Under the pieces are notes generated by a model. The model searched no databases, was not told the origin of the DNA, and saw nothing but the letters and a program-made list of their open reading frames with translations. 64,000 nt of DNA. It comes from Leucoraja erinacea. Its lineage: Eukaryota. Location of the stretch: positions 25,606,001-25,670,000 of the forward strand of contig NC_073388.1 in assembly GCF_028641065.1 (NCBI RefSeq). Direction: 5' to 3'. Shown here one piece after another: positions 3,350 through 57,010 of the stretch; the stretch's first letter is position 1; every line of letters begins with the position of its first letter. Position numbers and translations under genes: made by a program.

Positions 3350-3462
3350 CACGTAATCCCTCATTGTAACTCCTCATAAAATACAGATCAAACTTCAAAC
3401 TGGTAAGTTCTCGTTTAATCTTACTATTTTACTTATGAGTCACGTGAGTGACTACGTGAAGA
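3350..3462. repeat. DIRS internal complementary region (ICR)
   Basis: 3350-3428 is the reverse complement of 3133-3211; 3426-3462 is the reverse complement of 7948-7984. Confidence 0.95.
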
Positions 3463-3669
3463 TTTCAAAGCTCTGTGATTTCAAACCTTGTAACAGTTTT
3501 ACTCACTCACTGCCGAAAGCTCTTGAGGAAGGAAGTGTTATCGTAATTAACCAATGAATCTGTTTTTCAAGAAAACAAAAAGGTATTTATTAACAATAAC
3601 AAAAAACAAAATTGCTCCCCCGGGCTTAAATTAAATATTTGCAGCTTCTAATATTTTTGCTGCAAACAA

Positions 3670-6530: not shown

Positions 6531-6745
6531 GGTTATTGGCGATTTTGTCTTTTCTGTTTTCTTGGAGTCTTGTTCTGTCGACGTGCTGGCGATGTTGGGG
6601 GGAGGCGCATTTTCCAGGGGGTCCGCGGCGGGCCCTGATCTAAAAAAGATCTTTGGGGATAATGCGGCCCCAAGCTTTCACCAGTCCCATATTCCAGACG
6701 TCGACTGGTGGATGCCGTGGGGTGCTGCCGCTTGGGTATCAGAGT

Positions 6746-7837
6746 TCATGGTTTGCTCGTCCCGGGGCCTGCCCTCATGAGGCCAAAGGTTTTGGATGCC
6801 TCTTCCATGTCCTTCAGCTTTTTATTCAGGTCTCTCCCAAACAGTAATGAGTCTGCCTCCGCAGCTGGGACTTTGCACAAGCCAGCAAATTTGGGATTGA
6901 GGGCAGGTCTTATATTTTCCCTCCGGAGATTGTTCAGTTCGAATTGAGTGGTACACATCAAAGCCAGCACATCCTGCTGGTGTGTACTCATCTCCGTTGT
7001 CTCCACAGAACGAGCAAAGGCTGTGATAGCTGACATCAGGAGCCTTAGGATCCGCTGTAGCTTTAGTTCTTGTGCCCGAATAGGGGCCCCCACATTTCCC
7101 CAGATTTGGCTGTTGAGGCTTTTAACCTTAAGGGCCTCACAGTTCTCTGGTGCTGTGTGTTCTTCCAGCACCTGGGCGAGCACCTTTTCCTGTAGAGGCT
7201 TGTTAGACAGGTGATTGATACTGGCCGCCATTTTTGGCTCCAGAGGTGCTCCAGCCCGTGGGGTTGCTACGAAGCGGTCCACCACACCCAGCAGCTGTTC
7301 CTGTTCCTGCACCCCATGCATACTCCCGATTTCTTCCGCCTGCCCCTTTTCCAGACCAGCCCTGCCCTGGTCACCAATGCTAGCCTCCTGCTCCAGCCCA
7401 TGATATGAGGTAGCAAAGGGTAGTGCCTGACACGACACTATGGAGGAGGTACCTGTCCTGTCTCCCCGGGAGCGCTGCTGTTCCCGGTGGACCATCTCCT
7501 CCAGGAGCTGCTGAATGCAGCTCAGGCGGCTGTCTCTCCTCCGTTTTGGGGAGGACATTTCCCCCTCCGACGAGTCGGATTCGACCGGCCGATTCGTCTT
7601 CCTGGACGCTTTCCCAGTCCGCCGTGCGGGCTCTGGCGTGACTGGGTCAGGCTCGGTCTCGGGGATAGCAAACCGCTCAACGAGCGCCGCTGCCGCCGGT
7701 TGCTGCCCCGCTGGAATTGGACGCTCCTCTGGTGGAGTTAAAGTGCGGGCGGTTCTGTGTGAGAGCTTTCTGCGTTGAGACATCCTTGCACTCTGCAAAA
7801 CACTAACGCCACTCTCCTCCGTTAAGTCCCAACGCAC
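6746..7837 (-). CDS. DIRS gag-like ORF1 (start uncertain, 3' end probably frameshifted)
   Basis: 363-aa ORF upstream of RT, just inside the 5' ITR; APENCEAL, NNLRRENIRPALN and LLFG motifs are typical of vertebrate DIRS ORF1. Confidence 0.75.
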   Translation of the reverse strand: MRWDLTEESGVSVLQSARMSQRRKLSHRTARTLTPPEERPIPAGQQPAAAALVERFAIPETEPDPVTPEPARRTGKASRKTNRPVESDSSEGEMSSPKRRRDSRLSCIQQLLEEMVHREQQRSRGDRTGTSSIVSCQALPFATSYHGLEQEASIGDQGRAGLEKGQAEEIGSMHGVQEQEQLLGVVDRFVATPRAGAPLEPKMAASINHLSNKPLQEKVLAQVLEEHTAPENCEALKVKSLNSQIWGNVGAPIRAQELKLQRILRLLMSAITAFARSVETTEMSTHQQDVLALMCTTQFELNNLRRENIRPALNPKFAGLCKVPAAEADSLLFGRDLNKKLKDMEEASKTFGLMRAGPGTSKP

Positions 7838-7984
7838 CGTCTACTTACCTGACGGTCCGTTTTAAAGCGCAGCTGGAGAGCCTGACTCCAGCTGCCGCCG
7901 CTGTTGCAACTGCTGGGCGTAATGCCGCGCCTGCGCACTGAGCGGGTTCTTCACGTAGTCACTCACGTGACTCCAAAGTAAAAT

Positions 7985-8130
7985 TTACAGTGGCCAATGA
8001 ATCTACAATACACGTCTTTGGGATGTGGTGGGAAATTGGGAATTGGAATATCACACAGAACATGTAATGTGCACATAGCTAGCACCAGATGCTTGGAGTG
8101 AATGCGAGTTGCTTGAAGCTGAAAAGCAGC
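7985..8130 (-). mobile_element. V-SINE (HE1-like) remnant, split by the DIRS; other part at ~3095-3132
   Basis: ttacagtggccaat...cacgtctttgggatgtgg. The joined flanks match the intact SINE segment at 61549-61600 (cagattctaccactca...caattcacagtggcca). Confidence 0.7.
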
Positions 8131-16452: not shown

Positions 16453-16565
16453 AAGCCAATGGTAATATATCCTACACCATTTTAAGGGATTATTTGTCCC
16501 TTTATTGTAATTGGGAGAGGCTTCAAAATATAATTTTAACCTAGAAGAAAAAACACCTATCTAGC

Positions 16566-17652
16566 GCACAGTCAACATTACCACAGGAACTGAAGGATAA
16601 AATTATGTGATTAGAGGTATTAAGCAAAATTAGGGAAACCATCACATTGCCTAGATTTCTGCCGTTAGTTGACGCTAACACCTAACGGAGAAATTCTACG
16701 TCCTTTCTAGGTCTGATGACCTGAGATGGAACTTACTTATTTGTGCTTCTCTTGCAGTATTGTGGAGTTGCTTCTGACCAGATATTGATCATACTCAGAT
16801 TTTTAGAGATCCAGAATTATAAAAGGATTGTTGCATGTCATAGTATTGATATTTAATTTTGACAGGGGATAAATACACTAAATGCTAATTTTATGTTAGG
16901 AACATGCACAATGTTGCCCATATCCTTCAAGAACCGGATGTTCTGGATTCTTGTGCTTGACGTGTTATTTTCATGCAAATTAGAGGATTAAAGGCATTCA
17001 AGCCTGATTTCTGTGAAAACTGCTCTGCAATAAGTTTTCAAATTAGATAAGAGTTAATCTTGGATTACTCAGATTTCCATGGAAGAATTTTACTTTTTCA
17101 AAAGTGTTATCATGCATAATTAAGCAGTTATGCAATATTATACTGCTTTTACTTAAGTAGATATACTGACACTTAAAGTTATGCTTTATTCATTTTGTTA
17201 GAAAAGTCCTTTAAATGTGATAAGAACCACTATTTTAATATTATTACAATTATTGACGAATCCGGGCATTTTATTTATAAAATAACTTCCTTACATTAAT
17301 ACTGTTAAAATTGAACCTTAAATGGTTTAATTTTAATATTATAATAAATATATTTTACTAGGCAGAATATATTGATCAAAATGCTCTCATGACTGCTTTT
17401 AACATAAATTATTAGGTTCTTTTTTGTTCAAGCAAAAATGATTCAAGGACCATTTTAGATATCCAAGTTTCTCTGGCATGATTTTGTCATCTTTTCACAG
17501 TTCAAATATCTGTCTTCAAGTAATATTTTGTTTTTTTCTGTCTTTTCAACTAACGGCAGAAATCTAGGCAATGTGATGGTTTCCCAAATTTTGCTTAATA
17601 CCACTAATCACATAATTTTATCCTTCATTTCCTGTGGTAACGTTGACTGTGC
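16566..17652. repeat. 107-bp inverted repeat (16566-16672 / 17546-17652) with 873-bp spacer
   Basis: Manual alignment gives 4 mismatches and no gaps. Confidence 0.95.
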
Positions 17653-17889
17653 ACCATATGCTTAAATAATGTTTAGTAGAGTTTGCCATCCATTGATTCA
17701 CTTTACATATTGATACCACGGTAGGGGTTCATATTGAAACAATTTTTAATTATCCCAAAAAGTATGGTAAATGTGGCAAGTGCATACCCATGATTTGAAA
17801 ACAAATAAAATTAAGACAGATATGTTATTATTAAAATAAAGGCAAGTAAGGTTAAAACAACAGGGATTTAAGACGCCCCCCCCTTCCCC

Positions 17890-24804: not shown

Positions 24805-26128
24805 TGTATAGCACAGGAACAGACGTTTCAGCTCATATTGTCTGTGCCAAACATAATGTTAAGTTAAACTAATCTCGTCTGCCTGCATGTGATCCATTTC
24901 TCCCCATTCACTGAATATTAATGTGCCCAGTAAACACCACCATTGTATCTGCTTCCACCACCACTCCTGGCAGCTCGTTCCAGGCACCCATTATTCTCTG
25001 TGTAAAAGACTTGCACTCCATATTTCCTTTATACTTTCCCCCGCTGACCTGAAGGCCATGTCCTCTTTGTCAATTCCATCCTGGGAAAAAGGTCCATCTC
25101 TATGCCTCTCATATACTTCTCCTTGCAACCTCTGATGTTCCAGAGAAAACAATCTTAGTTTGTCTAACCTATCTTTCTAGTTAATAACCTCTAATCCAGG
25201 CAGCATTCTTGTAAACCCCTTCTGCACCCTCTCCAAAGCCTCCACATCCTTTTTGTAACAGGACAACTGGGGCTGCACAAAATACTCCATCTACTACCAA
25301 AGCAAAGTTTTACAAAGCTGCAACGTGATTTCCTGACTCTTATACAATGCACTAACCAATGAAGGCAAGCATATCATACGCCTTCTTCAACATTCTACTT
25401 ACCTCTGTTGCTGCTTTCAGGGAGCTATGGCCTTGGACGTCAAGATCCCTCTGAACATCAATGTGTTAAGAGTCTTACCAACTGTATACTTTCCCCTTAC
25501 ACTTGATCTCCCTAAGTGCAAACCATCACATTTGCATGGATTAAATTCCATCTGTAATTTCTCCACCCATATCTGTAATCCTGCTGTATCTTTTGCCAGT
25601 CTTCTTCACTATCTCCAACTCCATCAATTTTGGTGTCGTCTGCAAACTTACTACCCTAACCCATCTACATTTCCATTCAGGAGACAAAACAAACTGCAGC
25701 TGCTGGAATCATGATAAAACACACATTGCTGGAGTTACTCTACAGGCCAGAGGATTTTCTGGAGTACATGGAGGTTTTTTTCTCCAGAGATGTTCCCTGA
25801 CCAGCTGAATTACTCTAGCATTTTGTGTGTATCTTAGGTATAAACCAGCATTTATGAAATTATGGATAGATGTTGTTTTGGGTCAGGACTCTTCTTCAGA
25901 CGTCAGTCTGAAAAAGCCTCCCTATAGGTACCAGAATAATCCTTGTGGAACACCACAAGACAACAACCTACAGCCAGAATACCACCCTTTCACCATCAGC
26001 CTTTGTCTTCTATGGGTAAGGCAGTTCTGAATCCAAACCAAGTCACCATGGATTCCATGCATCTTAATCTTTTGGACCATGAGGGTCCTTGTCAAAAGCC
26101 TTACTAAAGTCTATGTATACAATATCCA
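24805..26128 (-). mobile_element. Degenerate CR1-group LINE with Penelope-end inserts
   Basis: Minus strand gives SKFADDTK (ttggtgtcgtctgcaaactt at ~25630), GVPQG (ccttgtggaacacc) and DFSKAFDK (ttgtcaaaagccttactaaagtc). Confidence 0.75.
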
Positions 26129-26379
26129 CTGAAGAAGGGTCTCACCCGGAAACTTCACCTATTCATGTTCTCCAGAGATGCTGCCTGTCCTACTGAGTTA
26201 CTCCAATCACTGTCCTCCATTCATCAATCACCATCTGCTCCTCAAAAAAACTTATTGGTTTAGATATACAACATGGAAAAAGGCTGTAAACACAAAATGC
26301 TGGAGTACTCAGCGGGACAGGCAGCATCTCTGGAGAGAAGGCATGTGGGACGTTTCGGGTTGAGACCTTTCTTCAGACT

Positions 26380-26890
26380 GGAAATGGTCCTATGGCTCAG
26401 AGTCCACATTGACCATCGATCTCCAGGTTCACAATAGTTCGATGTTATCCCATTTTTGCACTCCTTACACTTTTCCTAGAGGAAATTTTACAAAGGCCAA
26501 TTAACCAACATACCCAAAGGTACACAAAAATGCTGGAGAAACTCAGCGGGTGCAGCAACATCTATGGAGCGAAGGAAATAGGTAACGTTTCGGGCCGAAA
26601 CCCTTCCTCTGAAGAAGGGTTTCGGCCCGAAACGTTACCTATTTCCTTCGCTCCATAGATGCTGCTGCACCCGCTGAGTTTCTCCAGCATTTTTGTGTAC
26701 CTTTGATTTTCCAGCATCTGCAGTTCCTTCTTGAACAACCAACATAGCCGCACGTCTTTGGGATGTGGAAGGAAACCGGAGCACCTAGAGGTTACAGGGA
26801 GAACGTCCAAACTCGACACAGATAGTACCCAAGGTCAGGATCGAATCCAGGTCTCTGACGCTGTGAGGCAGCAGTTCTACCAACTGTTCT
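26380..26890 (-). mobile_element. V-SINE (HE1-like) hosting a Penelope hairpin insert
   Basis: cacgtctttgggatgtggaaggaaaccggagcacc...acagggagaacg...ggtcaggatcgaatcc. Confidence 0.8.
26513..26736. mobile_element. Palindromic Penelope-end insertion with hammerhead-like core
   Basis: 92-bp arms (26515-26606 / 26614-26705) with 1 mismatch; TSD aaccaacata (26503-26512 and 26737-26746). Confidence 0.88.
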
Positions 26891-27394
26891 GCCCTTATTG
26901 TTGCATTTAATTAACAAACAGATTTTCTGATTAATTTATAACTGTTGCCTATGCATTATTTGTATCCGGAGGGCCTGTGTTTTGATAATTAAATGAGGGC
27001 ACTGTAGGTGTTCATCTTAATTTGTAATATTATCTTCCCTGCAACATGTAAATATGTATCTTAGAGGTGACGCAGTGTACATTTTGATGAAAAGCAGTCG
27101 ACACTTGCCCCGAGTCAAGTTGATTATTTCAGAAGTTGTAAATCTTAGTAAATCCTCTCCATCACCTTCCAATTTATCTCGTTCGCCGATGAGGCCATTT
27201 ACAACTGAGAGGGCTGGTTTGACGCGTTGTTTAATACGGCACAAATCAAACGAAGCCAAATGTTTAAACAGAAATGGAAACACTCGAGTGACACGTCCGT
27301 CGGGCCTGTGGTATTTTATCCCCCTGAATATAACGTGTGTGTAAGAGTAAACTCCTTGTTTGGAGGATTTAGGTAACGCACCTTCTACCCTTTC

Positions 27395-28500
27395 GTGCGC
27401 TGCGTTATTTTGTTGCAGTTACTGCAGATTTTGCCCGATTCCAGTGTTTTTTTTTGTCGTGGCAGCGCATCAGCCTGCGCTCTGCTCTACCCTGCGGCTC
27501 AGGCTGCAGCTCCTCAGCTGCCTCGCTCTGACGTAACCCCGAAAAGCCGGTGCGGGCGGGCGGGCGGGCCGGCGGTCGGGCGCGCGCTTCGCCCGCCGCC
27601 GCCGCCAGATCGAAGCCTAATTGGCGGGGCCTGGAGCCGGGCAGCGTCAGGCCCCTGGCAGGCAGCAGACGGCATCGCGCCTCGCCTCAGACCAGAGCAA
27701 GGCAGGGGAGGGAAGGCAACAGCACAACGAGCAAGTTGCCGGTTTAAGCAGTGACTGGGCCCGCCCAGCGGGGGAGGGCGCCGAGTCCAAGGGCGCGCCT
27801 CGGGCCCCGTACTGAGGTAATTGAAGGGCGGGCCGAACTAGGCCGGGTTAAGGCCGCAGTTAGGCCGCGGCCCTGTTCCTCGCTCCAGCCCCGACAGACT
27901 CGATGTAAGGCCTGAAATCTCAACGGACCAAAGGGAAGAAGCCCACCGAGAAAGGGAGGGAGAGACGGGGGATATTTTCGTCGTTCAGTCCCAGACTTTC
28001 GGCCGTAGAGAAGGAGGAGAACGGCAGCCCCGAGGGAGAAACTGGAGTGAGTTATTTTCTTGTGCGCGGCCAGGTTCAATGAAATTAAACAAAGTAAAAT
28101 ACGGGAGGAAAGGAGAGCGGGACGGCCAAATTTGGGGTTTAGGCCTTGGCCAACAATATATACGGAGGTGATCGCCCCCGAATCTGCGAGGACAAGCGCT
28201 AGGAACAGGGAGCGTAACATGGCGGCGAAACAACATGTCGGCGACTGGGCGGGTGATTGGTGTCTGAACCGTGGAGGGAGGGGTAAGCGGCCATGATCGG
28301 CCTTCTTTCCTCGCGTCTAAACCTCACTGCAATCGCCTCACCTTCCATGGGGTTGTAGCTCTGATGCGATTGGAAAATGGCATGTATGCGCCGAGAGATT
28401 TGCAGCATTTAGGAACAAACATGACTATTCGGACCTATCATACGCGCACACACATCGTTCAACTGCAGACTGCGGTTTGAGATCGGCCTTCGCTGAGCGA
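27395..28500 (+). promoter_or_regulatory. CpG-island promoter of ZNF711
   Basis: Non-repetitive GC/CpG-rich block 16 kb upstream of the first coding exon. Contains GC boxes, CRE-like tgacgtaa (27529), inverted CCAAT (27620, 28256) and YY1-like aacatggcggc (28216). Confidence 0.8.
27700..27816 (+). other. ZNF711: Candidate non-coding first exon of ZNF711 (start uncertain)
   Basis: Donor GAG|GTAATT at 27816/27817 within the CpG island; alternative donors at 28047 and 28283. Confidence 0.4.
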
Positions 28501-29124
28501 GATATTTCTAACCATTGTATTGCCAGCGATGTTGCAGCATGCTGGTTAAGCTTGAAAAACTGTCGTTTTAATTCACTATACATGATCGTTTTCCGCTTTA
28601 AAAAATATTAAATTGGAACAGAATATTTCTATCAAAGTTAAAAATGTACGGACATTCACTCGTATCTTTTAACTGTTTATCCCAAATCCGTTTGACCTAT
28701 CCCTTTGTTAGAATTAGCAAAAGAATTCCCGCCCCCAGCCAATTTCTAACTACGTCGTAAGGCTCCCTCTGCCTGAAATCTGTTTGTGTTATTTATGCAG
28801 TACCCGTGGGAAAAGTGGTTACCTGCCTCTAGATTTTGTAATGTTACTAACGCCTATTCAAAATAACGTTTGAACTGTAAAGAATAATGCTTTGTAGTAT
28901 TACATTATGCTAGTAGGACGGAAATCACAATGTGGATGCTACAAATATGAGTTAAAACAAAAATTGCAAATATTTATTGTTGTGCAGAATCAATGCATAA
29001 AGAAAGGAAATTAATGTTTCAAGTCAATGACCAAAGGTCACACATTTGAAATATTAATTTCCGTTTCTTCTCCACAGATTCTGTCTGACCTGGTGATTTT
29101 CTGTATTTAAAATGTTATCCTCAT

Positions 29125-29340
29125 GGATGTGAGGGTGGCTGTAGAGCCAGCGACTCCGATTCGACCCTGCCCTCGAGTGCTGTCTGTGTGGAGTCTGCAT
29201 GTTCTCTGTGATCCCGTGAGTTTCCTCCCACATCCCAAAAACGTGTGGTCTCTAAAAAATTGCTCCTAGTGTGTAAGGATTGGATACAAAAATTAGATAA
29301 TTTAGAACTAGTGTGAACAGGGGATCAATAGTGAATGAGG
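29125..29340 (+). mobile_element. V-SINE remnant
   Basis: gtctgtgtggagtctgcatgttctc...tttcctccccacatcccaaa (V domain) after a B-box-like gattcgaccc. Confidence 0.75.
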
Positions 29341-29514
29341 ACAGATGGACCGAAGATAGGTGGAGGGGAAGGTATTGTGGAGGAAGCAGGGTATCTGCAA
29401 AAGGACTTGGACACGTAGAGGGTGCGGGCAAAGAAGTGGCAGATGTAATACAGTGTAGCAAAGTCATGATCGACACAAAAAGCTGGAATAACTCAGCCGG
29501 TCAGAAAGCATTTC

Positions 29515-29934
29515 GGGAGGTAGACAAAAGTGCTGGAGAAACTCAGCGGGTGCAGCAGCATCCATGGAGCAAAAGAAATAGGCAACGTTTCGGGCCTCCT
29601 CCATGGCCAGAGTGAGCACCACCGGAAATTGTAGGAGCAGCACCTCATATTCCACTTGGGCAGTTTGCACCCTAGCGTCATAAACATTGACTTCTAGAAT
29701 TTCCTGTAGCTCTTGCTGTCTCCTCCCCTTCTCAGCTTTCCCTCAGCCCTCGGGCTCCTCTTCCTTTCTCTTTTCTTCTCCCTGCTCCCTCCCCCACACC
29801 GTACATCAGTCTGAAGAAGGGTTTCGGCCCGAGATGTTGCCTATTTCCTTTGCTCCATAGATGCTACTGCACCCGCTGAGTTTTTCCAACACTTTTGTCT
29901 CCCTTCGATTTTCCAGCATCTGCAGTTCCTTCTT
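29515..29934 (+). mobile_element. Penelope 3' fragment with inverted 5' piece, nested in another Penelope end
   Basis: Encodes a GIY-YIG C-terminus (RKL.EQHLIFHLGSLHP), then the terminal repeat; TSD aagcatttc at 29506-29514 and 29935-29943. Confidence 0.85.
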
Positions 29935-29968
29935 AAGCATTTCTGGAGAAAAGGAATAGGTGATGTTT

Positions 29969-31830
29969 TGTGTAAGAAGGAACTGCAGATGCCAGTTTAA
30001 ACCAAAGATAGACACAAAAAGCTGGAGTAACTCGGCAGTATAGGCTGCATCTCTGGAGAGGATCGATGGGTAGTGTATATTAGACTATCTTCAGGGATGG
30101 GAGGGGGAGTTGAAGTGCTGAGCCACCGGGAGATCAGGTTGGTTATTGCGAAGGTGTTGGGCGAAGCGATCACCAAGCCTGCGCTTGGTCTCACAAATGC
30201 AGAGCAGTTGACACCTAGAGCAGTGGATGCGATAGATGAGGTTGGAGGAGATGCAGGTGAACCTCTGACACACCTGGAAAGACTGTTTGGGTCCTTGAAT
30301 GGAGTCAAGGGGGAAGGTAAAGTGACAAGTGTAGCATTTCCTGCGGTTGCAAGGGACAGTGCCAGGAGAGGGGGTGGTTGACGGGACGAATTGACCAAGG
30401 AGTTACAGAGGGAGCGGTCTCTGCGGAAAGCAGACGGGGAGGAGATGGGAAGATGTGGCCAGTGGTAGGATCCTGTTGGAGGTGGCGAAAAAGTCGAGGG
30501 ATTATTTGTTGTATGTGACGGCTGGTAGGGTGGAAGGTGAGGACAAGGGGGACTCTGCCCTTGTTACGAGTGGGGGGGGATGGGGATGGGGAGTGAAAGA
30601 GTTATGGGGTATAGAAGAGACTCTGGTGAATGCCTCATCTATACTAGAAGAGGGGAAGCCCTGTTCCCTGAAGAATGAGGACATCTCCTATGCCCTGGTT
30701 TGGAACACCTCATCCTGGGTATAGATACAGTGTAGACGGAGGAATTGGGATTAGGGGATGGAGTCCTTACAGGAAGCAGGGTGGGAAGAAGTGTAGTCTA
30801 GATGTCGGTGAGTAGTCCTCTCACCTGCGATGGAGATATTGAGGTCTAGAAATGGTAGGGAAATGTCGGAATTGGTCCAGGTGTATTTGAGTGCCGGATG
30901 GAAGTTAGTGGTGAAATGGATGAAGTCCGTGAGTTGTGCATGGGTGCAGGAGGTAACACCAATGCAGTCGTCGGTGTAGTGGAGGAAGATTTCGGAGATA
31001 GGGCCATGGTATGCCTCGAACAAAGATTGTTCGACGCACCCTACAAAGAGGCAGGCATAGCTTGGGGCCCATGCGCGTATTGTATTTGGAGGAAATGGGA
31101 GGAGTCAAACGAAAACTTGTTCGGGGTAAGGACCAGCTCCGCTAAGTAGAGGAGAGTATCAGTAGACGGGGATTGGTTGGCTCTGCGGTCGAGGAAGAAA
31201 CTGAGGGCTTTAAGATGAGGGAATGGGGGCCTGGAAAATGGAAGTCATGGAGTAGATGAAGAGCGTGTGAGGTGTCTTGAACATAGGTAGGGTGGAATTT
31301 AACCAGGGGGATAGGATGGATTCGAGGTATGTGGAAATAAGTTTGTTAGGACACGAACAGGCAGAAACAATGGGTCTGCCAGGACAGTCAGGTTTGTGGA
31401 TTTTGGGGAGAAGGTAAAATCGGGCCGTGCGGGGATGGGGAACGATGAGGTTGGAGGCTTGGGAGGGCAGGGAGCCGGAAGTGATGGAGTCAGTGATCGT
31501 GTTAGAGATCATGGCTTGGTGCTCGTCTGTGGGGTCATTGTCCAAGGATAATTAGGAGGAGGTGTCTGAGAGTTGGCGCGTGGCCTCAGCCTTGTAGAGA
31601 TCAGCGTTCCTGACTACCACGGCACCTCCCTTGTCGGCAGGTTTGATCACCTAGTCTGAGTTGTTGCAGAGTGAGTGGAGGGCTGAACGTTCAGGGGGGA
31701 AGAGGTTAGAGTGAAAAAGGGGAGTTGAGAAGTTGAGGCGGTTGATGTCCCGCTGGCAGTTTAAAGTAAAAAGGTCTAAAGCAGGTAGGTGGCCATGAGG
31801 AGGAGTCCAAGAGGAGGGGGTCCGTTGGAA
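29969..31830 (-). mobile_element. Penelope-like element (RT + GIY-YIG endonuclease), degenerate
   Basis: ARFYLLPKIHKPDCPGRPIVSAC, HYTDDCIG, LPFLDL (RT); RFTCISSNLIYRIHCSRC...ETKRRLGDRFAQH...VAQHFN (GIY-YIG). Confidence 0.93.
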
Positions 31831-33566
31831 TTCTACTGCTGCATCACCCAATGTGCCAATTAGTATGTGTGCTAATTCCCCATCACCAGCGGCATTGCTC
31901 CTGGAAAACTGCAGATCTATATCTTTATTGTGGGGGGGGGGGGGTGAATCCATCGATCTATATTGCTACATTGATATATTGAAGTATTGTTGACCTGATC
32001 ATATTCAATGTCAGTACTAAATATTTTTATTTTAGCCACTTGTCTCATTGGTTGATTTTCTTACCATTTGAATTCTCCTCTCTCCCAAACTATTAATCGG
32101 CACACTCTTTAACAGGATTGCAGAGATCTCTTAAAAATGGTAGAAATTTATTAAAAAATTCAAAATACTTGCACAGGCTCAAGACATGAATTTTCAGAAA
32201 TTCTTAAAATAAAATATGACTGTATTGATGACTAATATAATGGCTGAATGGTACTTTATCGTCACATGAACCTAGGCACAGTAAAATTGTTTTTTTACAT
32301 ATGGTTCATTAAAAATCTTAAATACATAAGAGACAATCATGCTTAAGTGCAATAGTGTATGGTAGATTAAACTGAGACAGTGTACAAGAGATTCACAACC
32401 AGATGTTTTACAGCAAAGAGGAGAAAACATTTAAAAATGTTAAAAGTATTTCAGAAGGTCCCACATTTTGTGCTTTGATTCACATTCCTCAATCCTTCCC
32501 GTTTAGCATGGCTGTCTAGCCCTGAATCAAAAATGATTGGGAAAATAAAGCATTCAATTAAAATGTCTAAATGTTTAAATAAGTCTGAAGGGACATCAGT
32601 TTTGGAGTTAAAAATGGAAACAATTCATAATTATATTTCCCTTATAGTCCAATCAGACTCTGGCAGACTGGGTTTATCAATATCTTTTGTTTCCACTAAG
32701 CTGCCTCTTAATTCTCCTTTTGGAAAAGTCATGATTTGACCGTAAAAGGATATCTCTGAAAGAGATCTGCAAATGTGCAAATCTATTTAACAAGAAACCC
32801 TCCAGCTGCATTGGCAAGTATTTGTAATTATGTCCAATGCTGTATAACTTTGTGTGGCTAAATATCTAGAGAAGCCATTTAATTAACAAAGGAGTAAGGT
32901 TATACCCCACAGTGATGTTTTATATTTCAGGCGGTTTTATTTATGTTAATTAAAATTGAAAGATATGGGAAAGAGGGTTGAGATGTGTTGGACAGATGGA
33001 AAAGTATGTTTGAACTTGACATGTAAACAGTCACAGATAGGAAGTGGGCACCGGTTTCCAATTTATAAACTGTCCTAAAGGCTGAATATCGTACTATGGG
33101 GCATGGCTGAGTTGAGGCCAGATGCCTCAAAGAAGAAAATCAAAGGAAGAGTTGTTGCTGGCCAACTGTTGACAAGCAGAATCAAATACACAGGACAAGA
33201 TGTTAAGAAGTCCCTTGTGCCAATAGGTGGGGAGCATTTCACGACATTCGTTGATTGTTGAGAGTGGTAGACGCTCAACATCGGTGGGGGGGGGGGGGGG
33301 GGGGGGATACGTATATCTTGGCTTGGGTAACCTTCAGGACAGTTGGGCACAGGACACAACATCAGTAGTGTACCCTTGCATCACTGGGTGTTTCGGCCTT
33401 TTAACACTATACACCCTCCACAAGGGCGGCCCGCTGCATCACTCCAGGGTGTTTCAAACCGTCCCAAAGGACTTTTGGGGCCCAGCACAAGGGAAACATA
33501 TCACGCATGTCAATGTAACCTTCACCGTGGACAGTTGGGCCCAGGAGGAAACATCATTTATATTTT

Positions 33567-33798
33567 ACAAGATACAAGATGCATTTAATTGTCATTTGGA
33601 CCCCTTGAGGTCCAAACGAAATGCCGTTTCTGCAGCCATACCTTACAAACACATAGACCCAAGACACAACATAATTTACATAAAAATCCATCACATCGCT
33701 GTGATGGAAGGCCCACTTATCCTCCCACAGCGATGGCGATTGTCCCGCGGCCATTAAAGCCACGCCGGGTGATGCAAGGTCGCACACCGGGGGTCTTG
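33567..33798 (-). mobile_element. Truncated second copy of the 1445-2357 retroposon
   Basis: atttaattgtcatttggacccc...ggtccaaacgaaatgccgtttctgcagccatac is shared; tail is (TCTTGTA)2. Confidence 0.85.
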
Positions 33799-35077
33799 CG
33801 GCCTTCAACCCCGCTGCAGGATGATCAGCCCCTCAAAAGCGCTCCCTCCAGTGTCTCGGTGCCGTGTCAAACCGTCCCAAAGATTCACCCTGACGTACTT
33901 GGGGCCCAGCATGGGTCTTTCCGCTTGAGGAAACGTCATTATAACGTCAAAGCAGCCTGCGCATATCGGTGAAGTAGAAGTATCGAAAGTCTGCCATTGA
34001 ATCCTAAATTCTATTATGTTACAAAAACTTACAACTTAGTATTGTTTAAGGCATGCAATTATAATTTATGCTTTATCCTTGTATTACCCATATTATGATG
34101 CATTTTATGGTCTAATACGCAATGCATTCAAAATTATACTGAATTATATTGAATGTTTCTGTTTTGTTTAAAAAGTATGATTTGTTTCATAAAAGTTGGT
34201 AAAAATTACTGAATGCCTAACCTTTTGGTAATTTGTTATTTTGGTGCTTAAATTATTGTTTTTGTTGCTTAATGTTTTGAAGCTTAGACACTCAATATTG
34301 TCCTCATAGGAACTAATCATTTACAAAATAACTCATTTCATTATTCATCATGACATGTAGAAACAAATTTACATTTACAGAAACAAATCTTTGGGTTAAA
34401 AATGGGGTTTGTTGCACAGTGGTTATGTTCATCATCCAGCAGTTCATTGTGTTCATATTTTTTCACGACAGTTTCAATGCCAATTTCCATTTCATTTTCA
34501 AAAGAGAAAATAATAGATATAGGTTCATTGTTCGATATGTATCTATAAAGTCATAAACATATTGTTAAATGTCCATTTGGATTACTCATTTCCAGGTGGA
34601 AGAAATGTTTAGTGACCATGAAATTGACAAATGGTTATGAGTGCTGGTTCTCATTCAGCCTGTGCTATAATTAGCCTCCATATCCTCGCTTTACAAGTGG
34701 AACTGGTTATGGATAAACTCAGAGATGTGACCCATCCCTGGCTCAGTTTTAACCATCAAAATAGATAAGAGAATGTTCAGAGTGCATTTCACTTATCGAA
34801 AACAAAGTGCTCACTTGGTATTGTTGCAACCTATGTGCATGTCAGCATGCTGCTTTTTGCCAAGGGATCACATAGTTTTTCAGTTGTTGCAAGTGGTGAT
34901 CAATGATTGAATAACCATGGAGAGCAGAGGGCTTAATGAATCCACAACAAAAACACACTAAGCTGTGCGTATAAGTGAAGTTGGAATGGAAATAGATAAT
35001 ATATAACATCAGAGTTGGTTGTGTGTCAGAACTGGAAAATCCCCACATTCCTATGAATCACTGGTCCACTGGTAAAG

Positions 35078-35510
35078 CAGGGGTCGGCAACCCCCCCCCC
35101 CCCCCCCCCCCCCCCATAATACAGAATCATCCGGCCTGCCGGGCCCCCCGAGCAGCAGCGGCCGGGCGCCCCGAGCAGCAGCCGAGCTCTGGCTGTACGC
35201 ATCCTGCGCAAAGCCGCCACACGGCCGCGCACCTTCAGTGAACACGTTTAAGAAAGAACTGTAGATGCTGGAAAAATTGAAGGTAGACAAAAATGCTGGA
35301 GAAACTCAGCAGGTGAGACATGCAAGAATAGCATGAGGCTAACCCCCCCCCACACACACACTGAGTTTCTCCAGCATTTTTGTCTACCTTTGAACACGTG
35401 ATTTGATGCCTGCCATCCGGGGCGGGATGCATGTGCACACGTGATAGATGCGGCCCGACATCCGCTCACAGACATGCAGCCCCTATGTAGAACAAGTTTG
35501 ACGACCCTTG
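35078..35510. mobile_element. hAT-like MITE with nested Penelope-end insert (35248-35390)
   Basis: Termini caggggtcggcaacc / gtttgacgacccttg; the nested insert is flanked by TSD tgaacacgt (35239-35247 and 35391-35399). Confidence 0.7.
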
Positions 35511-38500
35511 TCAAAGTGTCGAAGTGCTACTTGCGATGATATGTTGAACCTTGAGACCATGCATCAGGATTGCATAAGTTCGCTGTTAACAGTGGAAGGC
35601 CATCTCGCAATCTGTCCATTCATTTATCCTGTCGTGTCAGCACTGTCTGCCCTGTCAATAGAAATTATTATGATATTGTAATGTTCTGCTAAGAAAAAGA
35701 GGATGGACAGGTGTAGCAGCCATTGTTCATTAGTTCAGTCGAAGAACCAGCACAAAACTAGAAGAATTTCTCACTAATGTTACTAGATATTTGGTTAAGT
35801 TACAATAAATGCCATTAAATTCTAGTTAGATCTTCAAAATTTGAAATTTCTAATTTGGTATTAAGTTCCACTCATTTTGGGGAGTTAATTTTGAATCCAA
35901 GTACAATATGCAATTCATTTCTCTGTCCGTAATAATGTGAAATAAACTGGACTGTTTTTGTAGAAAAATTGTCAGTTTCTTAATTCTCAATAAGCGAGTT
36001 TGGTATTACAACTGCACATGCCCAGGTCATGGGTCATTTGGAATAAACATTCTCGCCAGCTGAGCTACTGTGTGTGTCTGGACCTGTGTATTCATTTCAT
36101 TGACATTTATAAATAAATATATCTGTCAAATATGTCAGCAGTAGGCCACAGTGTACTGCAGGCTGCACAAACCCACGATTGTATCTATTTAAATTATAGA
36201 CTCTACAGCACCAGCCTTGAAAATGCAAGAATGCCTGGAATGAACCTGTCAATTATCAAATCCCTGGCATTAGCCTGGGTCACAGCCATTCAAATTTGAT
36301 ATTGATTTACACGAATTACAAGTTGTGTGGCTAACCAATTTGAGACAGTCCTTGCATTCCTATCTAAACAACCTTCCTGGATTGAAGGAAATGAGAATGT
36401 GCTGTGTAGGTTGGAAAGTTCAGATTGGATTCGAACAGGCTGGTTAAACTTTCAAGGTAGGTTGGCTTAAATAAAGATGCTGTCGCTTTAACCTCTGGGG
36501 TGGGTTCCAGTCTGTCAGGGCACACAGTTGGGAGCCAGGTCCCCATCTGACAGGACCTGTTCTCGCTCTCTTTGAAGGAGGCACCGCTCGGCCCAGCAAG
36601 TGGGCAAATGCAGAGCCAACCCGTAATATGAGTGGGGACATTTTCTCAGTCAGATTTTATCGACAGTTGGGATGGGGGATCTAGGAGAGAGAGCTGGCGA
36701 TGCCGCACAGACGGAACAGTTTAATAACGGCCCATTAAAATCCGGACACGCGTCAACCTGGGCTGATGTGATCTGACTGCCCTCTCGCTAGCTCGCTGCA
36801 TGCCCGATCCTAACACAGAACCTCCACTAAACCTTTAGGCTTCGGGTAACACCTACACAAAGACCTCTGCAAACAAGGGCTGGCGAACTGTGCTGGTCAA
36901 CGTGCACTGGGCGAGATGGCTGGGAGAAACGCACCGCAACCGCCGCAAACTTGGAACAGCACAGACCCTCCACTCAATCGATCCAATACTAAAGGATTTT
37001 GCAGTTACATGGCCAACCTTGTAGTCAGTTTTCCTCTGAGATGAATCTTTGCCTTCACGGTACATTCACACCGCCTGCAGGTAAAGCATCAGCCCACATC
37101 ACATTGATACAGTCGCTGCTTGCTTCAGATTAAATATATTTTTACACATAAATTATGAATAAAGATAAGAAAATGTTTCAAACACAAGTAATATTTTCTT
37201 ATGTAGTAGCAAACACATTAAGGATTAAATGAAAATAATAAATTCTTTAACTTTTTGAATATCTCATTATTGCAGATTAATGAACTGAACTAGAACTGGG
37301 TCTGTATAAGTAGTGTGTGAACAGCAGAACAAGAAAGGAAACTATTGAGTTGACAGAATTCTAGATTAATTCCTTGGTAGAATAGTTAACAATTTATACA
37401 CAGTTTATACAGCGCTGTGTTTGCTTTCTTTTGATCCTGAATGACTTTTGACAAATTCCATGATTCCTTGCCTTTATCGAGATACCAAACTCTTTTGAAG
37501 AACATGGACATAATGCTATGGTACAAGACAGAGTACAATTCTAGAATTGGAAAAAGATTTATTATGAAGAATGGAGAAGACGCATGTATTATATGCAATT
37601 TGTCTTGTGCAATTAAAAAAAAATTGGGAACTGGACATTGTGGGAAGGCTGGCATTTATTGACCATCCTTGCTTACCTTTGATAAGGTGAAGATGTACCA
37701 CCAACTTGAACTGCTAGTCTTTCTGGCAAAGAACTCCCACCATGTAATTCGGAAGTGTCGGTGATAAAGGGCAGTAGTTATAAACCAATAAAATTGATGG
37801 GTGGGGTGGTTGGTGGTGGTTAGGAATTGAGTGTTCCCATGTGCCTTCCTCATTTGTCTTTCTTTGAGATAATGGTAATAAGTTGAGTGAGTAGTAATGA
37901 GTATCCTTTTTATGAGTAACTATGGCGCATTTTGTGGATGAAACACTACAGCGACTGCATTAGTGATGGAGCAAATTATTTGGGTAACATTCCTCAAAGG
38001 TACAGTTATCTTCTGCAAGAACATCCTTTATCTTGTTTGTGGGAAATTTTTAAAGCAAAAGAATGTATAGTACATCCTGTTATATTTGTTCCTTTCATAG
38101 TTCTGAATTTTTTGCAAATGGGATTTTCGCTAACCCCAGTGATTGTATCATATGCAAATTTTGTACCTGTAACTTAGCTCACTGGTTAAAGTCTCTTGCA
38201 TCTCTGGACTCGCTCTGGGATAGGAGTATGTAATTTGGGTTTGCACTTCATTAGAACCTAGAGAATATTGCATTGTCCTTTTGACAAGATATTAAATGCT
38301 TGTCTTCTGTAATGAGTCTCTAGTCTGTTCAAGCCAAAAAGAAAGAACATGTTTCATTATTTTCTAATTACAACAGGGTTTTTTTAAATGTAGATACAAG
38401 TATTAATTATGAAATATTTTTAAGTGTTTTGGTTTCAGTGTATTCTGTACTTAAATCAACATTGAAACTTCATACAGCAGCACCAGACCCAATGGCTGGC

Positions 38501-38847
38501 CACTTGCATGTCATTTTACTTGCTGTTCAAGAAACAATTTGTGTAGATAATGATTAGTTCTAATATATTTTCAGATGAATAAACAATCTATTTTATCCTG
38601 CTTCCTACTTAACTGGGTTTGTCCATCTTTTCCTCGAATAGATAATTATTTTTGGGTGCGTCAACGGTTGGAACAAAGAAAAGCAGCTGGTGTTGATTAA
38701 ATTCCAGAAAGGATGATGGGGGAAAATCTACTGTATTTTGATATTTCTATGTAAGGTAGATGGGGCGTAATGCAAGAGTTGTGTTCCTAAACAAAAACAT
38801 TACATTATTGAAAATCATATTATAAAAACAAATTGTATCAATAGGGG

Positions 38848-39077
38848 ATAGACACAAAATGCTGGAGTAACTCAGTGAGTCGGGGAGCATCTCTGGAGGG
38901 AAGGAATGGGTGACGATTCGGGTCGAGACTCTTCTTCAGACTGCGCATCAGGGCTGAGGAAGGGTCTCGACCCAAAATGTCACCCATTCTTTTTCTCCAG
39001 AGATGCCTGACCCGCTGAGTTACTCCAGGATTTTTTTATCTGTCTGCGGTGTAAACCAGCATCTGCAGTTCCTACAT
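38848..39077. mobile_element. Palindromic Penelope-end insertion
   Basis: Inverted arms; perfect 16-bp TSD attgtatcaatagggg (38832-38847 and 39078-39093). Confidence 0.88.
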
Positions 39078-39569
39078 ATTGTATCAATAGGGGTTTGGTG
39101 AATAAAGACTTTCAGACATGCAATAACAAAGTTATTCTTTCCAAAGAGACTTTAAAAAATAAAGGAATTTTAATAGCTACTACACCAAGTGGGCCCTTTC
39201 ACACAGGATGCCTGGTCCCCCAATGCAATATTCCACCACTCACCCATAGCCCCCAACTGCGCAGGTGTGGCTCATTTCCCCTTATTCACCCTCCCTCTTT
39301 TTAAACTTAAATAAAAATCCAACTGCACTTGCTGCCAGGGAAAAAAATCCAATTGTACTTGCTGCCAGGACTCAGTGTCCTGTGATTTGCAACATTGTAA
39401 TGGGCAGGGTGGGCAATTGGATTTGGATTTTTTACAGTGAGATGTTAAGTAAAAAGTTAAATTTGTAACGTTTAAAATGTGAATAACATGTAAAATATAA
39501 CATCATCAATAATACATTATTAGCGAAAACCAAGCATTTACCTTATGGATTTGAGCTATCGATGGCCGA

Positions 39570-40027
39570 TGATTCGTCAGATCGTTTGATTTGGGCTGAT
39601 TTTTTTTGTAAGTAAAATGTGTCCGTAACGGTCGTTGCGGAGCTTCCCGAAGTTGACACGAAGGAATGATGTTAGCGACTGAATCCTTACGACAGGTAAA
39701 CAAGGGACACTATGTTTCCAAATTGAAGATTGGCTTAGTTTCTTAGTTTTGATGACTGATTTTACTGATTTTAAAAAGTTGGAAAATATATCGTAAACGG
39801 TCGTTGAGTTTTTGACACCATGATGTTTTTGATATTAAATTGGAAAATAAGAACAAATAATTAACTCACCCAAAGATCGCTACTACCATAAGATCCCTCT
39901 TTGGGTGTTTGAAAAGCGTTAGAGGTTTGGAGCCTCCGTGGTTTAACTTACGGACGTACCGACCCCGATAACGGTCGTTGTGACAATGGACACCAAGCAC
40001 AACGACTGTTACGGAATCTTTACTGTA
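39570..40027. mobile_element. Probable DNA-transposon remnant (unclassified)
   Basis: CpG-retaining island in an AT-rich intron; recurring taacggtcgttg motif (39626, 39969; related at 39795; inverted at ~40000); ends ...tttactg|ta like a TA-flanked TIR. Confidence 0.4.
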
Positions 40028-47845: not shown

Positions 47846-48270
47846 TGTACCACCAACATGATCCAAGTTTTCTGATATCATGGAAGACATTAGCAAGGAA
47901 ATATGCAGGTTTAATGCAAAGGAAATTAATATAAACTGGTTCTTGTGTGCCAGAATTAGGTAAAATGGTATGTTTTACTTGCCGAGGTGAGAGAAATAAT
48001 GTAAAGTTGTGTGGGAATGTATGTTCAGTGAAAAAAAAAATCTGCTTTATTTAATTAACTAGCTCTTTGGTTTCCCGTGTGCTGTTGTCTGTTTGGAACA
48101 TTTGAGATCTAATAATTGATCAAATCTATAGATAATTCTATTATGCAATTTTATTACGATTACATTGTAATGTAGATAAATCACATCTCTTACATTTACA
48201 TCTAAAACAAATGTAATTTGTAAAATGCTCACAGAAATTGTCCATAACTAATCTGTCGTTTGTGTTGCAG

Positions 48271-48834
48271 TGTCTGGAATGGCTGGCGCAGCCCACATTG
48301 ATGGAGATCACATTGTTGTATCTGTGCCTGATGCAGTGCTCGTCTCAGATGTCACTGGGGAAGAGGTTACATTAGAACATGGTCTTACAACTAACATCGA
48401 TGAAGTTGTTCAGGGCCCGGATATTATAGCTGAAAGTGATGATGTGACGGATGGTGTGATGGTCTCGGACTCTGTCCTAGAAGCAAATGTTACCATTGAA
48501 GAAGACTTGAATACCAATTCAGTTCCTGACCATGTTCTGGCTTCAGATCTTATAACAGAAACTGTTGATGTTCCAGATCAAGTACTAGTGTCAGATCTTG
48601 TATCAGTGCAGGATGAGGAACAGTTCGAACATGTAGTCCAGGATTCTGTTACAGATGTTCTCTCTCCTGCGATGCTCACAGAAGAAGTTATGGAAGTAGA
48701 GTCTGTGTCAGAGTCTGTGATTCAAAACCATGATTTAGTAGTTCAAAATGAAGAGACTGTTTCTGGCCCAACCATGACTATTGAAGCCCAAGTAGATGGA
48801 AAAGAAACATCTGAGGATTTCTTAATGATATCCT
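48271..48834 (+). CDS. ZNF711: ZNF711 coding exon 2 (acidic activation domain)
   Basis: [26 protein letters not shown]...GPDII...SEDFLMIS; ttgcag acceptor, T|GTAAGT donor; 564 nt, phase 1-1. Confidence 0.95.
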
Positions 48835-52227: not shown

Positions 52228-52425
52228 AGGTAGACAAAAATGCTAGAGAAACTCAGCAGGTGAGGCAGCATCTATGGAGCAAAGGAATAGGTGACGTTTC
52301 GGGTCGGGTCTTGACCCGAAACGTCACCTATTCCTTCGCTCCATAGATGCTGCCTCAAAAGCCGAGTTTCTCCAGCATTTTTGTCTACCTTCGATTTTTC
52401 CAGCATCTGCAGTTCTTTCTTAAAT
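52228..52425. mobile_element. Palindromic Penelope-end insertion
   Basis: Inverted arms meet at tttcgggtc/gacccgaaa; TSD aggt(c/a)atctagtaga (52213-52227 and 52426-52440). Confidence 0.88.
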
Positions 52426-53155: not shown

Positions 53156-53365
53156 AGACACAAAATGCTGGAGTGACTCAGCGGGACAGGCAGCATCTCT
53201 GGAGAGAAGGAATGGGTGACACTTCTTGAGACTGATATCAGGGGAGTGGGCGGTAGAGCGATAAAATGTAGTAGGATACAGGAAGACTGGTAGGAGAACT
53301 GGGAAGGGGGAGGAGATGGAGAGAGAGGGAAAGCAAAGGCTACTTGAAGTTACAATTTAAGGGCC
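53156..53365 (-). mobile_element. Penelope 3' end insertion
   Basis: gacacaaaatgctggagtgactcagcgggacaggcagcatc; perfect 15-bp TSD actggatgttattgt (53141-53155 and 53366-53380). Confidence 0.85.
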
Positions 53366-56886: not shown

Positions 56887-57010
56887 TAAGAAGGAACTGC
56901 AGATGCTGGAAAATCGAAGGAAGAAGGGTTTCGGCCCGAAACGTTGCCTATTTCCTTCGCTCCATAGATGCTGCTGCACCCGCTGAGTTTCTCCAGCACT
57001 TTTGTCCACC
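56887..57010. mobile_element. Short Penelope-end insertion with inversion
   Basis: TSD ttaca(c/g)aattttttgtt (56870-56886 and 57011-57027). Confidence 0.85.

What the first reader, a model, noticed from the sequence alone, without database searches (positions are those of the whole stretch)
26513..26736. Dispersed family of tiny palindromic Penelope-end insertions with long TSDs
Seen: seven short inserts built from the Penelope terminal sequence, mostly as an inverted pair, each with its own 9-17 bp TSD. They are 26513-26736 (aaccaacata), 29515-29934 (aagcatttc), 35248-35390 (tgaacacgt), 38848-39077 (attgtatcaatagggg), 52228-52425, 53156-53365 and 56887-57010. The inversion point differs in each copy, and two sequence subfamilies occur. 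Established: PLEs often leave inverted, truncated ends. Inference: these are independent insertion events of a MITE-looking but retrotransposed hairpin class, made either by fold-back/twin priming or by a non-autonomous small RNA mobilised by Penelope RT/GIY-YIG.
Basis: partly seen in the sequence, partly recalled or inferred. Interest (0 to 1): 0.7.

Follow-up and report, generated by a model that had tools for sequence, protein, structure and literature searches.

The report
Twice-primed Penelope retrotransposon stubs
These small mirror-image repeats are real, very common stubs of a known kind of jumping gene (Penelope-like), likely built afresh at each landing when both cut DNA strands copy the same stretch of its RNA, and one of the seven is likely a single such stub that was later copied to many places inside a small DNA transposon.

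Summary
All seven inserts and their TSDs are real. They are stubs of the hammerhead-bearing pseudo-LTR of an abundant endonuclease-positive, Neptune-like PLE; a sample of the genome extrapolates to about 54,000-167,000 short head-to-head pairs. Outer ends fall at two sites about 35 nt apart, and TSD-bounded pairs combine one of each (28 of 28 classifiable among 34; 74 of 74 among 77 family-A pairs). Junctions recur (1,373 copies of one, 51 of that at 26513), but with the tail on either side and in several haplotypes, so they are microhomology hot spots in the ribozyme, not a propagating mini-element. The two arms share variants, and the tail-less arm often reaches further, which fold-back cannot give. 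Best model: both nicks are primed at two internal RT starts, as shown in vitro for an Anolis PLE. Corrections: 53156 is a single arm, 56887 is tail plus arm, and 35248 is cargo of a hAT-like MITE (182 copies). The architecture is published, and this scan reported it before in this and other genomes.

The parts
26513..26736 (+). Insert 1, family A: tail-less arm on the minus strand (26515-26609) joined head-to-head to a tailed arm on the plus strand (26609-26736); TSD 26503-26512 / 26737-26746; inserted into a dispersed host repeat
   Evidence: junction at 51 loci; 103 of 110 host-repeat alignments fit an empty site with one TSD copy
26609..26636 (+). Minimal hammerhead core in the tailed arm (CUGAAGA, one extra base, stem II, GAAA, C, GUU); predicted cut after 26636
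   Evidence: read from the sequence against the descriptor in PMC4209133; conserved in the cluster consensuses; not found by Rfam; activity untested
29515..29934 (+). Insert 2, family A: short tail-less inverted arm 29518-29596, then ORF end plus 3' UTR 29597-29810, then tailed arm to 29934; TSD 29506-29514 / 29935-29943; inserted into an older PLE end
   Evidence: 345 of 362 host alignments fit an empty site with one TSD copy
29974..30700 (-). Older 5'-truncated PLE copy with a broken RT-thumb / GIY-YIG coding remnant and a tailed end
   Evidence: translation; used as query (60,632 first-look candidates, 150 scored)
35248..35390 (-). Insert 3: tailed arm on the left, tail-less arm on the right, filler between; cargo of the MITE below; TSD about 17 bp in sister copies (left copy 35231-35247, right copy here shortened by 3 nt)
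   Evidence: 182 loci; 129 loci with the exact host/insert junction
35078..35510 (.). Non-autonomous TIR DNA transposon (about 410-500 bp, ~14-bp TIR, 8-bp TSD in sister copies; hAT/Charlie-like by recall) carrying insert 3
   Evidence: insert-free copies at 3 loci, two of which share flanks
38848..39077 (+). Insert 4, older family B: tail-less inverted arm 38847-38939, tailed arm 38954-39073; TSD 38832-38847 / 39078-39093
   Evidence: left-flank contigs of four coded runs run about 20 bases into it
52228..52425 (+). Insert 5: tail-less inverted arm 52226-52305, tailed arm 52306-52424, junction in hammerhead stem II; TSD 52213-52227 / 52426-52440
   Evidence: flank junction unique in the genome
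53156..53365 (-). Insert 6, family B: single 5'-truncated copy (3' UTR plus tail-less end, with a deletion in the hammerhead); not a palindrome; TSD 53141-53155 / 53366-53380
56887..57010 (+). Insert 7, family A: inverted tail only (56887-56920) plus long tail-less arm (56920-57012); TSD 56870-56886 / 57011-57027
   Evidence: junction unique in the genome
59791..59908 (+).
   Evidence: blastn

Best explanation
The inserts are very short head-to-head copies of the pseudo-LTR of an abundant Penelope-like element, bounded by 9-20-bp target duplications, likely made in one step when the element's protein nicks both target strands and primes reverse transcription from each nick at two internal RNA sites about 35 nt apart. 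SHOWN here: two fixed outer ends; one of each per insert; one TSD per insert; the two arms share variants; junctions cluster at short self-complementary stretches in and just before the hammerhead; coding parents carry the same end. INFERRED: (1) a staggered double nick (median 14-15 bp) gives two 3' ends; (2) one RT starts at the tail end, the other about 35 nt upstream, on the same RNA or on RNA of the same source locus; (3) both cDNAs stop early, often at the 5' edge of the pseudo-LTR, which would be the RNA's 5' end when the upstream pseudo-LTR of a tandem transcript is the template; (4) the two same-sense cDNAs anneal through the ribozyme's own hairpin or other microhomology, or are end-joined with small patches, and repair fixes the centre either way. 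The stubs are likely dead on arrival. Insert 3 was multiplied later as cargo of a TIR DNA transposon.
For: Ends are bimodal at 0 and about -35. Head-to-head is 92 of 115 adjacent arm pairs within 60 bp. One tail plus one no-tail in 56 of 60 classifiable close pairs among 91 (4 NN, 0 TT; p=9e-13), in 28 of 28 classifiable among 34 TSD-bounded pairs, and in 74 of 74 among 77 family-A pairs, 60 of which were targeted by junction pattern. The same rule holds in multi-kb copies L241, L243, L246 and L259. At the stem-II junction (1,373 exact loci) the tail is left in 16 and right in 10 of 30 (4 unclassified); at the junction of insert 1 (51 loci) it is left in 8 and right in 16 of 30 (6 unclassified), in several haplotypes. 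Arms agree at subfamily sites in 48 of 51 (0.47 expected) and 52 of 54 (0.75 expected); rare variants recur in the partner arm in 20 of 162 occurrences against 2.2 expected and 24 of 176 against 1.9 (overlapping set). The tail-less arm reaches further in 13, the tailed arm in 6, equal in 7 of 26. Empty paralogous sites hold one TSD copy for 7 of the 8 inserts (of 37 tested) that had a spanning host repeat, and for insert 3. Tandem full-length copies show the unit running straight into the ORF start (L247, L249, L252). 10 of 15 TSD-bounded solo arms, and the pseudo-LTRs of L247 and L242, begin at positions 3-4 of the unit. In vitro precedent: PMC11167929 (both strands cut and extended, two adjacent internal RT starts that define the tail, predicted dimer).
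Against: No intermediate is observed; the whole mechanism is read from end products. Only 34 of 138 sampled pairs keep a scorable TSD (older copies decay). 4 NN close pairs exist, and long copy L245 looks NN with no evident TSD. One of 8 empty-site tests (L122, 3 weak hits) favoured no TSD copy. Arm concordance could also come from one source locus being active per cell or period, or partly from arm-to-arm conversion; most rare variants (152 of 176 occurrences) are not shared. No pile-up of read starts marked the proposed RNA 5' end in three RNA runs (these libraries may not show 5' ends). Short target/RNA overlap is seen at the tailed end (mean 1.8 nt, 0.8 at the other end), whereas PMC11167929 reports initiation without homology. 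No orthologous empty site was seen (swamped by repeats).
Confidence: 0.78

Rival explanations
1. A non-autonomous hairpin mini-element (SINE-, MITE- or retrozyme-like small RNA) is transcribed as a unit and mobilised in trans by PLE proteins.
For: Junctions are strongly shared: 1,373 of 5,635 short-gap family-A palindromes have one exact centre. Lengths are stereotyped (31 of 34 between 127 and 249 bp). PLE-derived non-autonomous retrozymes are described (10.64898/2026.07.22.740005). One junction (insert 3) did propagate as a unit.
Against: Both polarities and several haplotypes occur at each shared junction. The tail-less end varies by copy (mostly -33 to -38). The spectrum includes solo arms, tail-only arms and 6-kb coding palindromes. 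The one propagated case travels with flanking TIRs and 8-bp TSDs, that is, as DNA cargo. In RNA, 86-95% of laid reads run on into unlike sequence and no discrete ends appear.
Confidence: 0.06
2. Fold-back: a single cDNA, primed at one nick, snaps back on a local hairpin and copies itself (or an antisense RNA self-primes, as proposed in PMC3846280); the endonuclease then trims the second end at a fixed site.
For: Centres sit at hairpin-capable sequences; arms share private variants; the self-priming idea is in print, and endonuclease resolution has been proposed for the tail.
Against: A fold-back copy cannot reach further than its template, yet the tail-less arm is the longer in 13 of 26, and insert 7 has non-overlapping arms. 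At the stem-II junction the loop-keeping arm is the tail-less one in 16 of 26. Solo tail-less arms with TSDs exist (insert 6). An antisense-template version is not excluded by the arm-length test alone, but gives no reason for two fixed outer ends.
Confidence: 0.08
3. Dual priming: two separate RNA molecules, one per nick, with the same two start sites.
For: Overlapping arms are easier to make from two templates; described for L1 as a speculation (PMC2837659). Concordance could reflect a single active source per cell.
Against: Subfamily concordance of 48 of 51 and a roughly tenfold excess of shared rare variants. Two free RNAs give no reason for strict one-tail/one-no-tail pairing. This differs from the best explanation only in step 2.
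Confidence: 0.06
4. The stubs are remnants of long elements deleted after insertion.
For: Long inverted copies exist (L241, L246), and microhomology at centres also fits deletion.
Against: Solo arms pile up at the same 5' edge directly against their TSD. Thousands of exact centres lie in a 25-nt zone. Young copies with 0-2 differences already have the short form.
Confidence: 0.02

Closest known systems
EN+ Penelope-like insertions with an inverted pLTR, one-sided 30-40-bp tail and TSD (Adineta Pen2a, PMC3846280; general scheme, PMC8557442)
   Same: [quoted passage not shown]
   Different: Most copies here are only the two pseudo-LTR stubs (130-250 bp), in tens of thousands; TSDs are longer (median 14-15 against the 8-10 bp in the passages read); the pairing rule and junction hot spots are counted here.
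Anolis Poseidon PAc in vitro (PMC11167929)
   Same: Two adjacent internal RT starts define the tail; both strands are cut and extended; the hammerhead lies upstream and uncut RNA is the template (0 of 151 arms start at the predicted cut); AT-rich targets (TSDs 67% AT).
   Different: Different clade; the parts read do not analyse genomic inverted pairs, arm concordance or junctions; short priming overlap is seen here at the tailed end.
L1 twin priming / dual priming (PMC2837659)
   Same: Two primings at the two nicks, inverted segments within one TSD pair, joining at an internal junction.
   Different: L1's second site is variable and the arms do not overlap; here both sites are fixed and the arms usually duplicate the same sequence; there is no poly(A).
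Minimal PLE hammerheads (PMC4209133) and non-LTR retrozymes (10.64898/2026.07.22.740005)
   Same: Type I minimal core with an unpaired base before stem II and a short helix I; opposite-strand pairs 100-700 bp apart were noted in Schistosoma.
   Different: Not tandem arrays; no evidence for a circular or discrete RNA; head-to-head arms cannot form the tandem dimer.
MITEs / non-autonomous hAT elements (family label recalled)
   Same: Short, inverted-repeat, high-copy. The carrier of insert 3 is a true one (TIR, 8-bp TSD).
   Different: The stubs have asymmetric ends, variable 9-20-bp TSDs and a retroelement parent, so they are not MITEs.

Membership tests
EN+ Penelope-like element (parent) | Single ORF with RT followed by a C-terminal GIY-YIG | tested here: met
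   L241 1,193-aa frame: RVT_1 E=3e-6 and GIY-YIG E=0.012 (0.0011 for the C-terminal part), both below Pfam gathering scores; L013 RVT_1 above cutoff, with its 3' end 96% identical to the arm of insert 1
EN+ Penelope-like element (parent) | Tandem pseudo-LTR flanking the ORF | tested here: met
   L247, L249, L252 and L257: the unit precedes the ORF start and ends the element
EN+ Penelope-like element (insertion) | Inverted 5'-truncated copy, 30-40-bp tail at one end, TSD | tested here: met
EN+ Penelope-like element | Minimal hammerhead in the pseudo-LTR | tested here: met
   core read in cluster consensuses against PMC4209133; no Rfam match; self-cleavage not testable
Neptune clade | CX2-5CxxC linker and CCHH motif | tested here: met
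   CX4CXXC upstream of, and two Cys inside, the GIY-YIG read in the translations; definition
Neptune clade | RT phylogeny places it with Neptune rather than Nematis | not tested
   no reference set held; the clade name rests on the motifs and on the vertebrate host
MITE (the stubs) | Symmetric TIR ends and a fixed-length TSD | tested here: not met
   ends differ by about 35 nt; TSD 9-20 bp
Non-LTR retrozyme / SINE-like unit | Propagation as a unit (one haplotype and polarity, tandem arrays, discrete or circular RNA) | tested here: not met
   both polarities and several haplotypes at shared junctions; head-to-head outnumbers tandem 92 to 16; the RNA part is inconclusive
Non-autonomous hAT element (carrier of insert 3) | Short TIRs and 8-bp TSD | tested here: met
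   TIR pairs in 11 of 12 copies; 8-bp flanks identical or within 1-2 mismatches in 9 of those 11, the window copy not among them
Non-autonomous hAT element (carrier of insert 3) | Matching autonomous transposase | not tested
   not searched

The most novel reading that the evidence does not exclude
The stubs are a genome-wide in vivo record of PLE integration: one dimeric RNP copies one uncut RNA twice, from two obligatory start sites, into the two nicks; both cDNAs run off at the transcript's 5' end at the front edge of the hammerhead, and the ribozyme's stem II serves as the built-in annealing site that closes the insertion. This would explain the inverted repeat, the tail and the excess of solo and paired pseudo-LTRs in one model.
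Probability: 0.42. Interest if true: 0.6.

Novelty: new member of a known kind. Interest (0 to 1): 0.37.

Why it matters
How PLEs make their inverted ends and tail is stated as open in PMC8557442 and only partly answered in vitro (PMC11167929). Tens of thousands of these stubs allow counting tests that few-copy genomes cannot: strict pairing of the two ends, shared template, and junction choice. For annotation, they mimic MITEs and miRNA hairpins (sub-threshold Rfam miRNA hits), and shared breakpoints should not be read as a propagating family. Insert 3 shows how one stub can gain hundreds of copies inside a DNA transposon. The architecture itself is not new.

Tried and rejected
DNA search of the own genome with the arm found nothing because common words are skipped. 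Rfam gave no hammerhead, only sub-gathering miRNA matches. PDB sequence search with the RT-EN part: 0 hits. Orthologous empty sites: contigs of four coded runs laid on 25500-40000 were swamped by repeats and showed no informative joint. The run search listed no RNA holder. Raw RNA reads of three runs on L249 showed no place where many molecules begin or end, so the transcript start was neither confirmed nor excluded. Ribozyme-cut run-off (lead from earlier notes): 0 of 151 untargeted family-A arms start within 1 nt of the predicted cut, not reproduced. Splicing at the acceptor-like sequence before the hammerhead: solo arms keep the AG/G and carry no common upstream exon, and an ORF-end-to-hammerhead joined motif was found 0 times in the held loci; rejected as the cause of the pile-up. 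MFE folding of the leader was unremarkable (z -1.0). A planned enlargement of the random sample by 40 tiles was not obtained, so frequencies rest on 114 tiles plus the window. A census of tail-only copies like insert 7 was not obtained.

Full report
1. Observation. The seven inserts are present at the given coordinates, each between direct repeats of 10, 9, 9, 16, 15, 15 and 17 bp, two of them with one mismatch. Inserts 1-5 are inverted pairs (one search lists arms of 95, 79, 30, 53 and 80 nt). Insert 6 (53156) is one tail-less, 5'-truncated arm with 3' UTR. Insert 7 (56887) is an inverted 33-nt tail joined to a long tail-less arm. The window is G000:C12:25606001-25670000 of a 2.19-Gb genome.

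2. Parent. A GIY-YIG remnant in the window gave 60,632 first-look candidates in the genome. L013 holds RT, linker, endonuclease, 3' UTR and an end 96% identical to the arm of insert 1. Long open frames exist (up to 1,193 aa; RVT_1 and a weak GIY-YIG match). The CX4CXXC linker and the cysteines inside the GIY-YIG fit the Neptune/Nematis definition in PMC8557442 (passages); no tree was built. In tandem copies L247, L249, L252 and L257 the ~135-nt unit is followed directly by the start of the ORF. So the unit is a pseudo-LTR, and its two 'ends' are internal sites of the RNA. It carries a minimal hammerhead core with the extra base before stem II described in PMC4209133 (parts 1-2 of 4 read); Rfam did not list it.

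3. Genome sample. 114 evenly spaced 10-kb tiles plus the window (1.204 Mb) gave 566 hits, of which 526 scoring 25 bits or more were kept, in four clusters of 79-92% mean identity to their consensus. Outer ends are bimodal, at the tail end and about 35 nt short of it. Of 115 adjacent arm pairs within 60 bp, 92 are head-to-head. Of 138 head-to-head pairs within 3 kb and away from tile edges, 34 have a TSD score of 9 or more, against 0 of 600 swapped controls. Of those 34, 28 could be classed at both ends, and all 28 have one tailed and one tail-less arm. Among all 91 close pairs, 56 are mixed, 4 tail-less on both sides, 0 tailed on both, and 31 unclassifiable. Tiles alone extrapolate to about 167,000 close pairs, about 54,000 with a scorable TSD, and about 0.97 million arms. 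For family A, exact anchor patterns count 5,635 and 2,792 palindromes with gaps of 0-30 and 31-60 nt. Among 77 TSD-bounded family-A pairs (17 untargeted, the rest fetched by junction pattern), 74 are mixed and 3 unclassifiable; TSDs are 9-20 bp, median 15. Multi-kb coding copies follow the same rule (L241, L243, L246, L259); L245 appears tail-less at both ends, without an evident TSD.

4. The TSDs are insertion products. Pre-insertion sites rebuilt in a script were compared with all held loci. For 8 of 37 inserts a host repeat spanned the site, and 7 fitted one TSD copy without a gap, including insert 1 (103 of 110 alignments) and insert 2 (345 of 362). One (L122, 3 weak hits) did not. Orthologous empty sites could not be seen.

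5. Junctions: shared but recurrent. The centre of insert 1 occurs at 51 loci, that of insert 7 at one, and the hammerhead stem-II centre at 1,373. In 30 loci of each shared centre, flanks and TSDs differ, several haplotypes occur, and the tail lies on either side of the asymmetric central base: 16 left, 10 right and 4 unclassified for stem II; 8 left, 16 right and 6 unclassified for insert 1's centre. A propagating unit would keep one polarity per lineage. Two same-sense cDNAs annealing through a quasi-palindrome would leave a central mismatch that repair could fix either way (inference). Other centres carry short patches, some repeating nearby element sequence (listings).

6. One template. 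The two arms of an insert agree at subfamily-diagnostic sites in 48 of 51 (0.47 expected) and 52 of 54 (0.75 expected), but show no excess at a CpG site (45 of 55, 0.83 expected). Rare variants recur in the partner arm in 20 of 162 occurrences against 2.2 expected, and 24 of 176 against 1.9 in an overlapping set. Most rare variants are not shared, so conversion has not homogenised the arms. This shows a common source locus; it cannot prove a single molecule.

7. Not fold-back. In 26 TSD-bounded mixed close pairs the tail-less arm reaches further 5' in 13, the tailed arm in 6, and 7 are within 3 nt. In family A alone it is 8, 0 and 9 of 17, a set in which insert 3 and L121 are the same event counted twice. 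A cDNA folding back cannot extend past its own end, nor create a tail it lacks.

8. Why so short. Of 44 solo family-A arms listed, 16 had a TSD; dropping insert 7, 10 of 15 begin at positions 3-4 of the unit, directly against the TSD, and the pseudo-LTRs of L247 and L242 begin there too. No arm of 151 begins at the predicted ribozyme cut, in line with uncut RNA as template in PMC11167929. Run-off at the RNA's 5' end is the simplest reading; an RT stall at the C-rich tract just upstream is the alternative. Three RNA runs showed no start pile-up, and 86-95% of laid reads ran on into unlike sequence, as expected for passengers in host transcripts.

9. Insert 3 is cargo. Its filler-arm junction occurs at 182 loci. 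Nine of the ten fetched loci, L121 and the window copy share flanks and junction, and most share a ~17-bp TSD, inside a 410-500-bp element with terminal inverted repeats and 8-bp TSDs, window 35078-35510 (L269 has lost the right TSD region, and L261 lacks the carrier's 5' end). The exact host/insert junction occurs 129 times. Insert-free carriers with one TSD copy occur at 3 loci, two sharing flanks; they may be ancestral or may have lost the insert by recombination. Insert 5's flank junction is unique; inserts 4 and 6 were not tested this way.

10. Mechanism and literature. PMC11167929 (abstract, main text and part of the methods read) shows both strands cut and extended and two internal RT starts that define the tail. 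PMC3846280 (passages) and PMC8557442 (passages) describe the inverted pLTR, one-sided tail and TSD, and call the mechanism unresolved. PMC4209133 notes opposite-strand hammerhead pairs. PMC2837659 (passages) defines twin and dual priming for L1. 10.64898/2026.07.22.740005 (abstract and passages) treats tandem retrozymes as PLE derivatives. Seven searches listed no paper that counts the pairing rule or junction hot spots or treats this family; the library lacks most subscription papers and repeat databases, and no supplements were read. Earlier scan notes report the same architecture and model in this and other genomes; my reading was formed before I saw them. Their ribozyme-cut and A-to-G claims were not reproduced here.

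11. Verdict. Real and far beyond chance; a known PLE insertion type in a minimal, very abundant form, best explained by double priming at two fixed RNA sites (0.78). New member of a known kind; interest 0.37.

Noticed in passing
window 35078-35510: TIR DNA transposon (hAT-like by recall) in which filled copies (129 exact) far outnumber insert-free copies (3 exact) by one pattern each: a PLE stub hitch-hiking in a MITE burst.
   Followed up: yes
L246:1888-8019 (G000:C18:26567000-26576999): 6.1-kb head-to-head pair of two near-complete coding PLE copies (801 and 802 aa open frames), one end tailed and one tail-less, with a TSD.
   Followed up: partly
window about 3100-7990, minus strand: Broken DIRS-like retrotransposon: RT (PF00078) at 5712-6677, tyrosine recombinase (PF00589) at 3715-4419, inverted repeats at 3129-3432 and 7929-7984; the DIRS label is recalled.
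   Followed up: no
window 48252-48905: Exon of a ZFX/ZFY-like gene (PF04704, E=7e-31); inserts 4-7 flank it and may be intronic.
   Followed up: no
window 16559-16672 and 17546-17659: 114-nt, 94% inverted repeat around an 873-nt AT-rich interior, unrelated to the PLE; probably another TIR element.
   Followed up: no
L013:3094-3400: PLE stub whose centre holds three tandem 32-nt copies of hammerhead-region sequence, inside a 13-bp TSD; looks like repeated template switching.
   Followed up: no
L016:5520-5625 and related copies: The 3' UTR resembles a ~95-nt intron (donor-like sequence at the stop codon, pyrimidine tract, acceptor just before the hammerhead), as reported for D. virilis Penelope in PMC4209133; no spliced copy was found in the held loci.
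   Followed up: partly
L249:3563-3765: A few RNA reads (6, from 3 starts, one run) join 3765 back to 3563, the 5' edge of the unit; could be a tandem genomic copy or a small circle.
   Followed up: no
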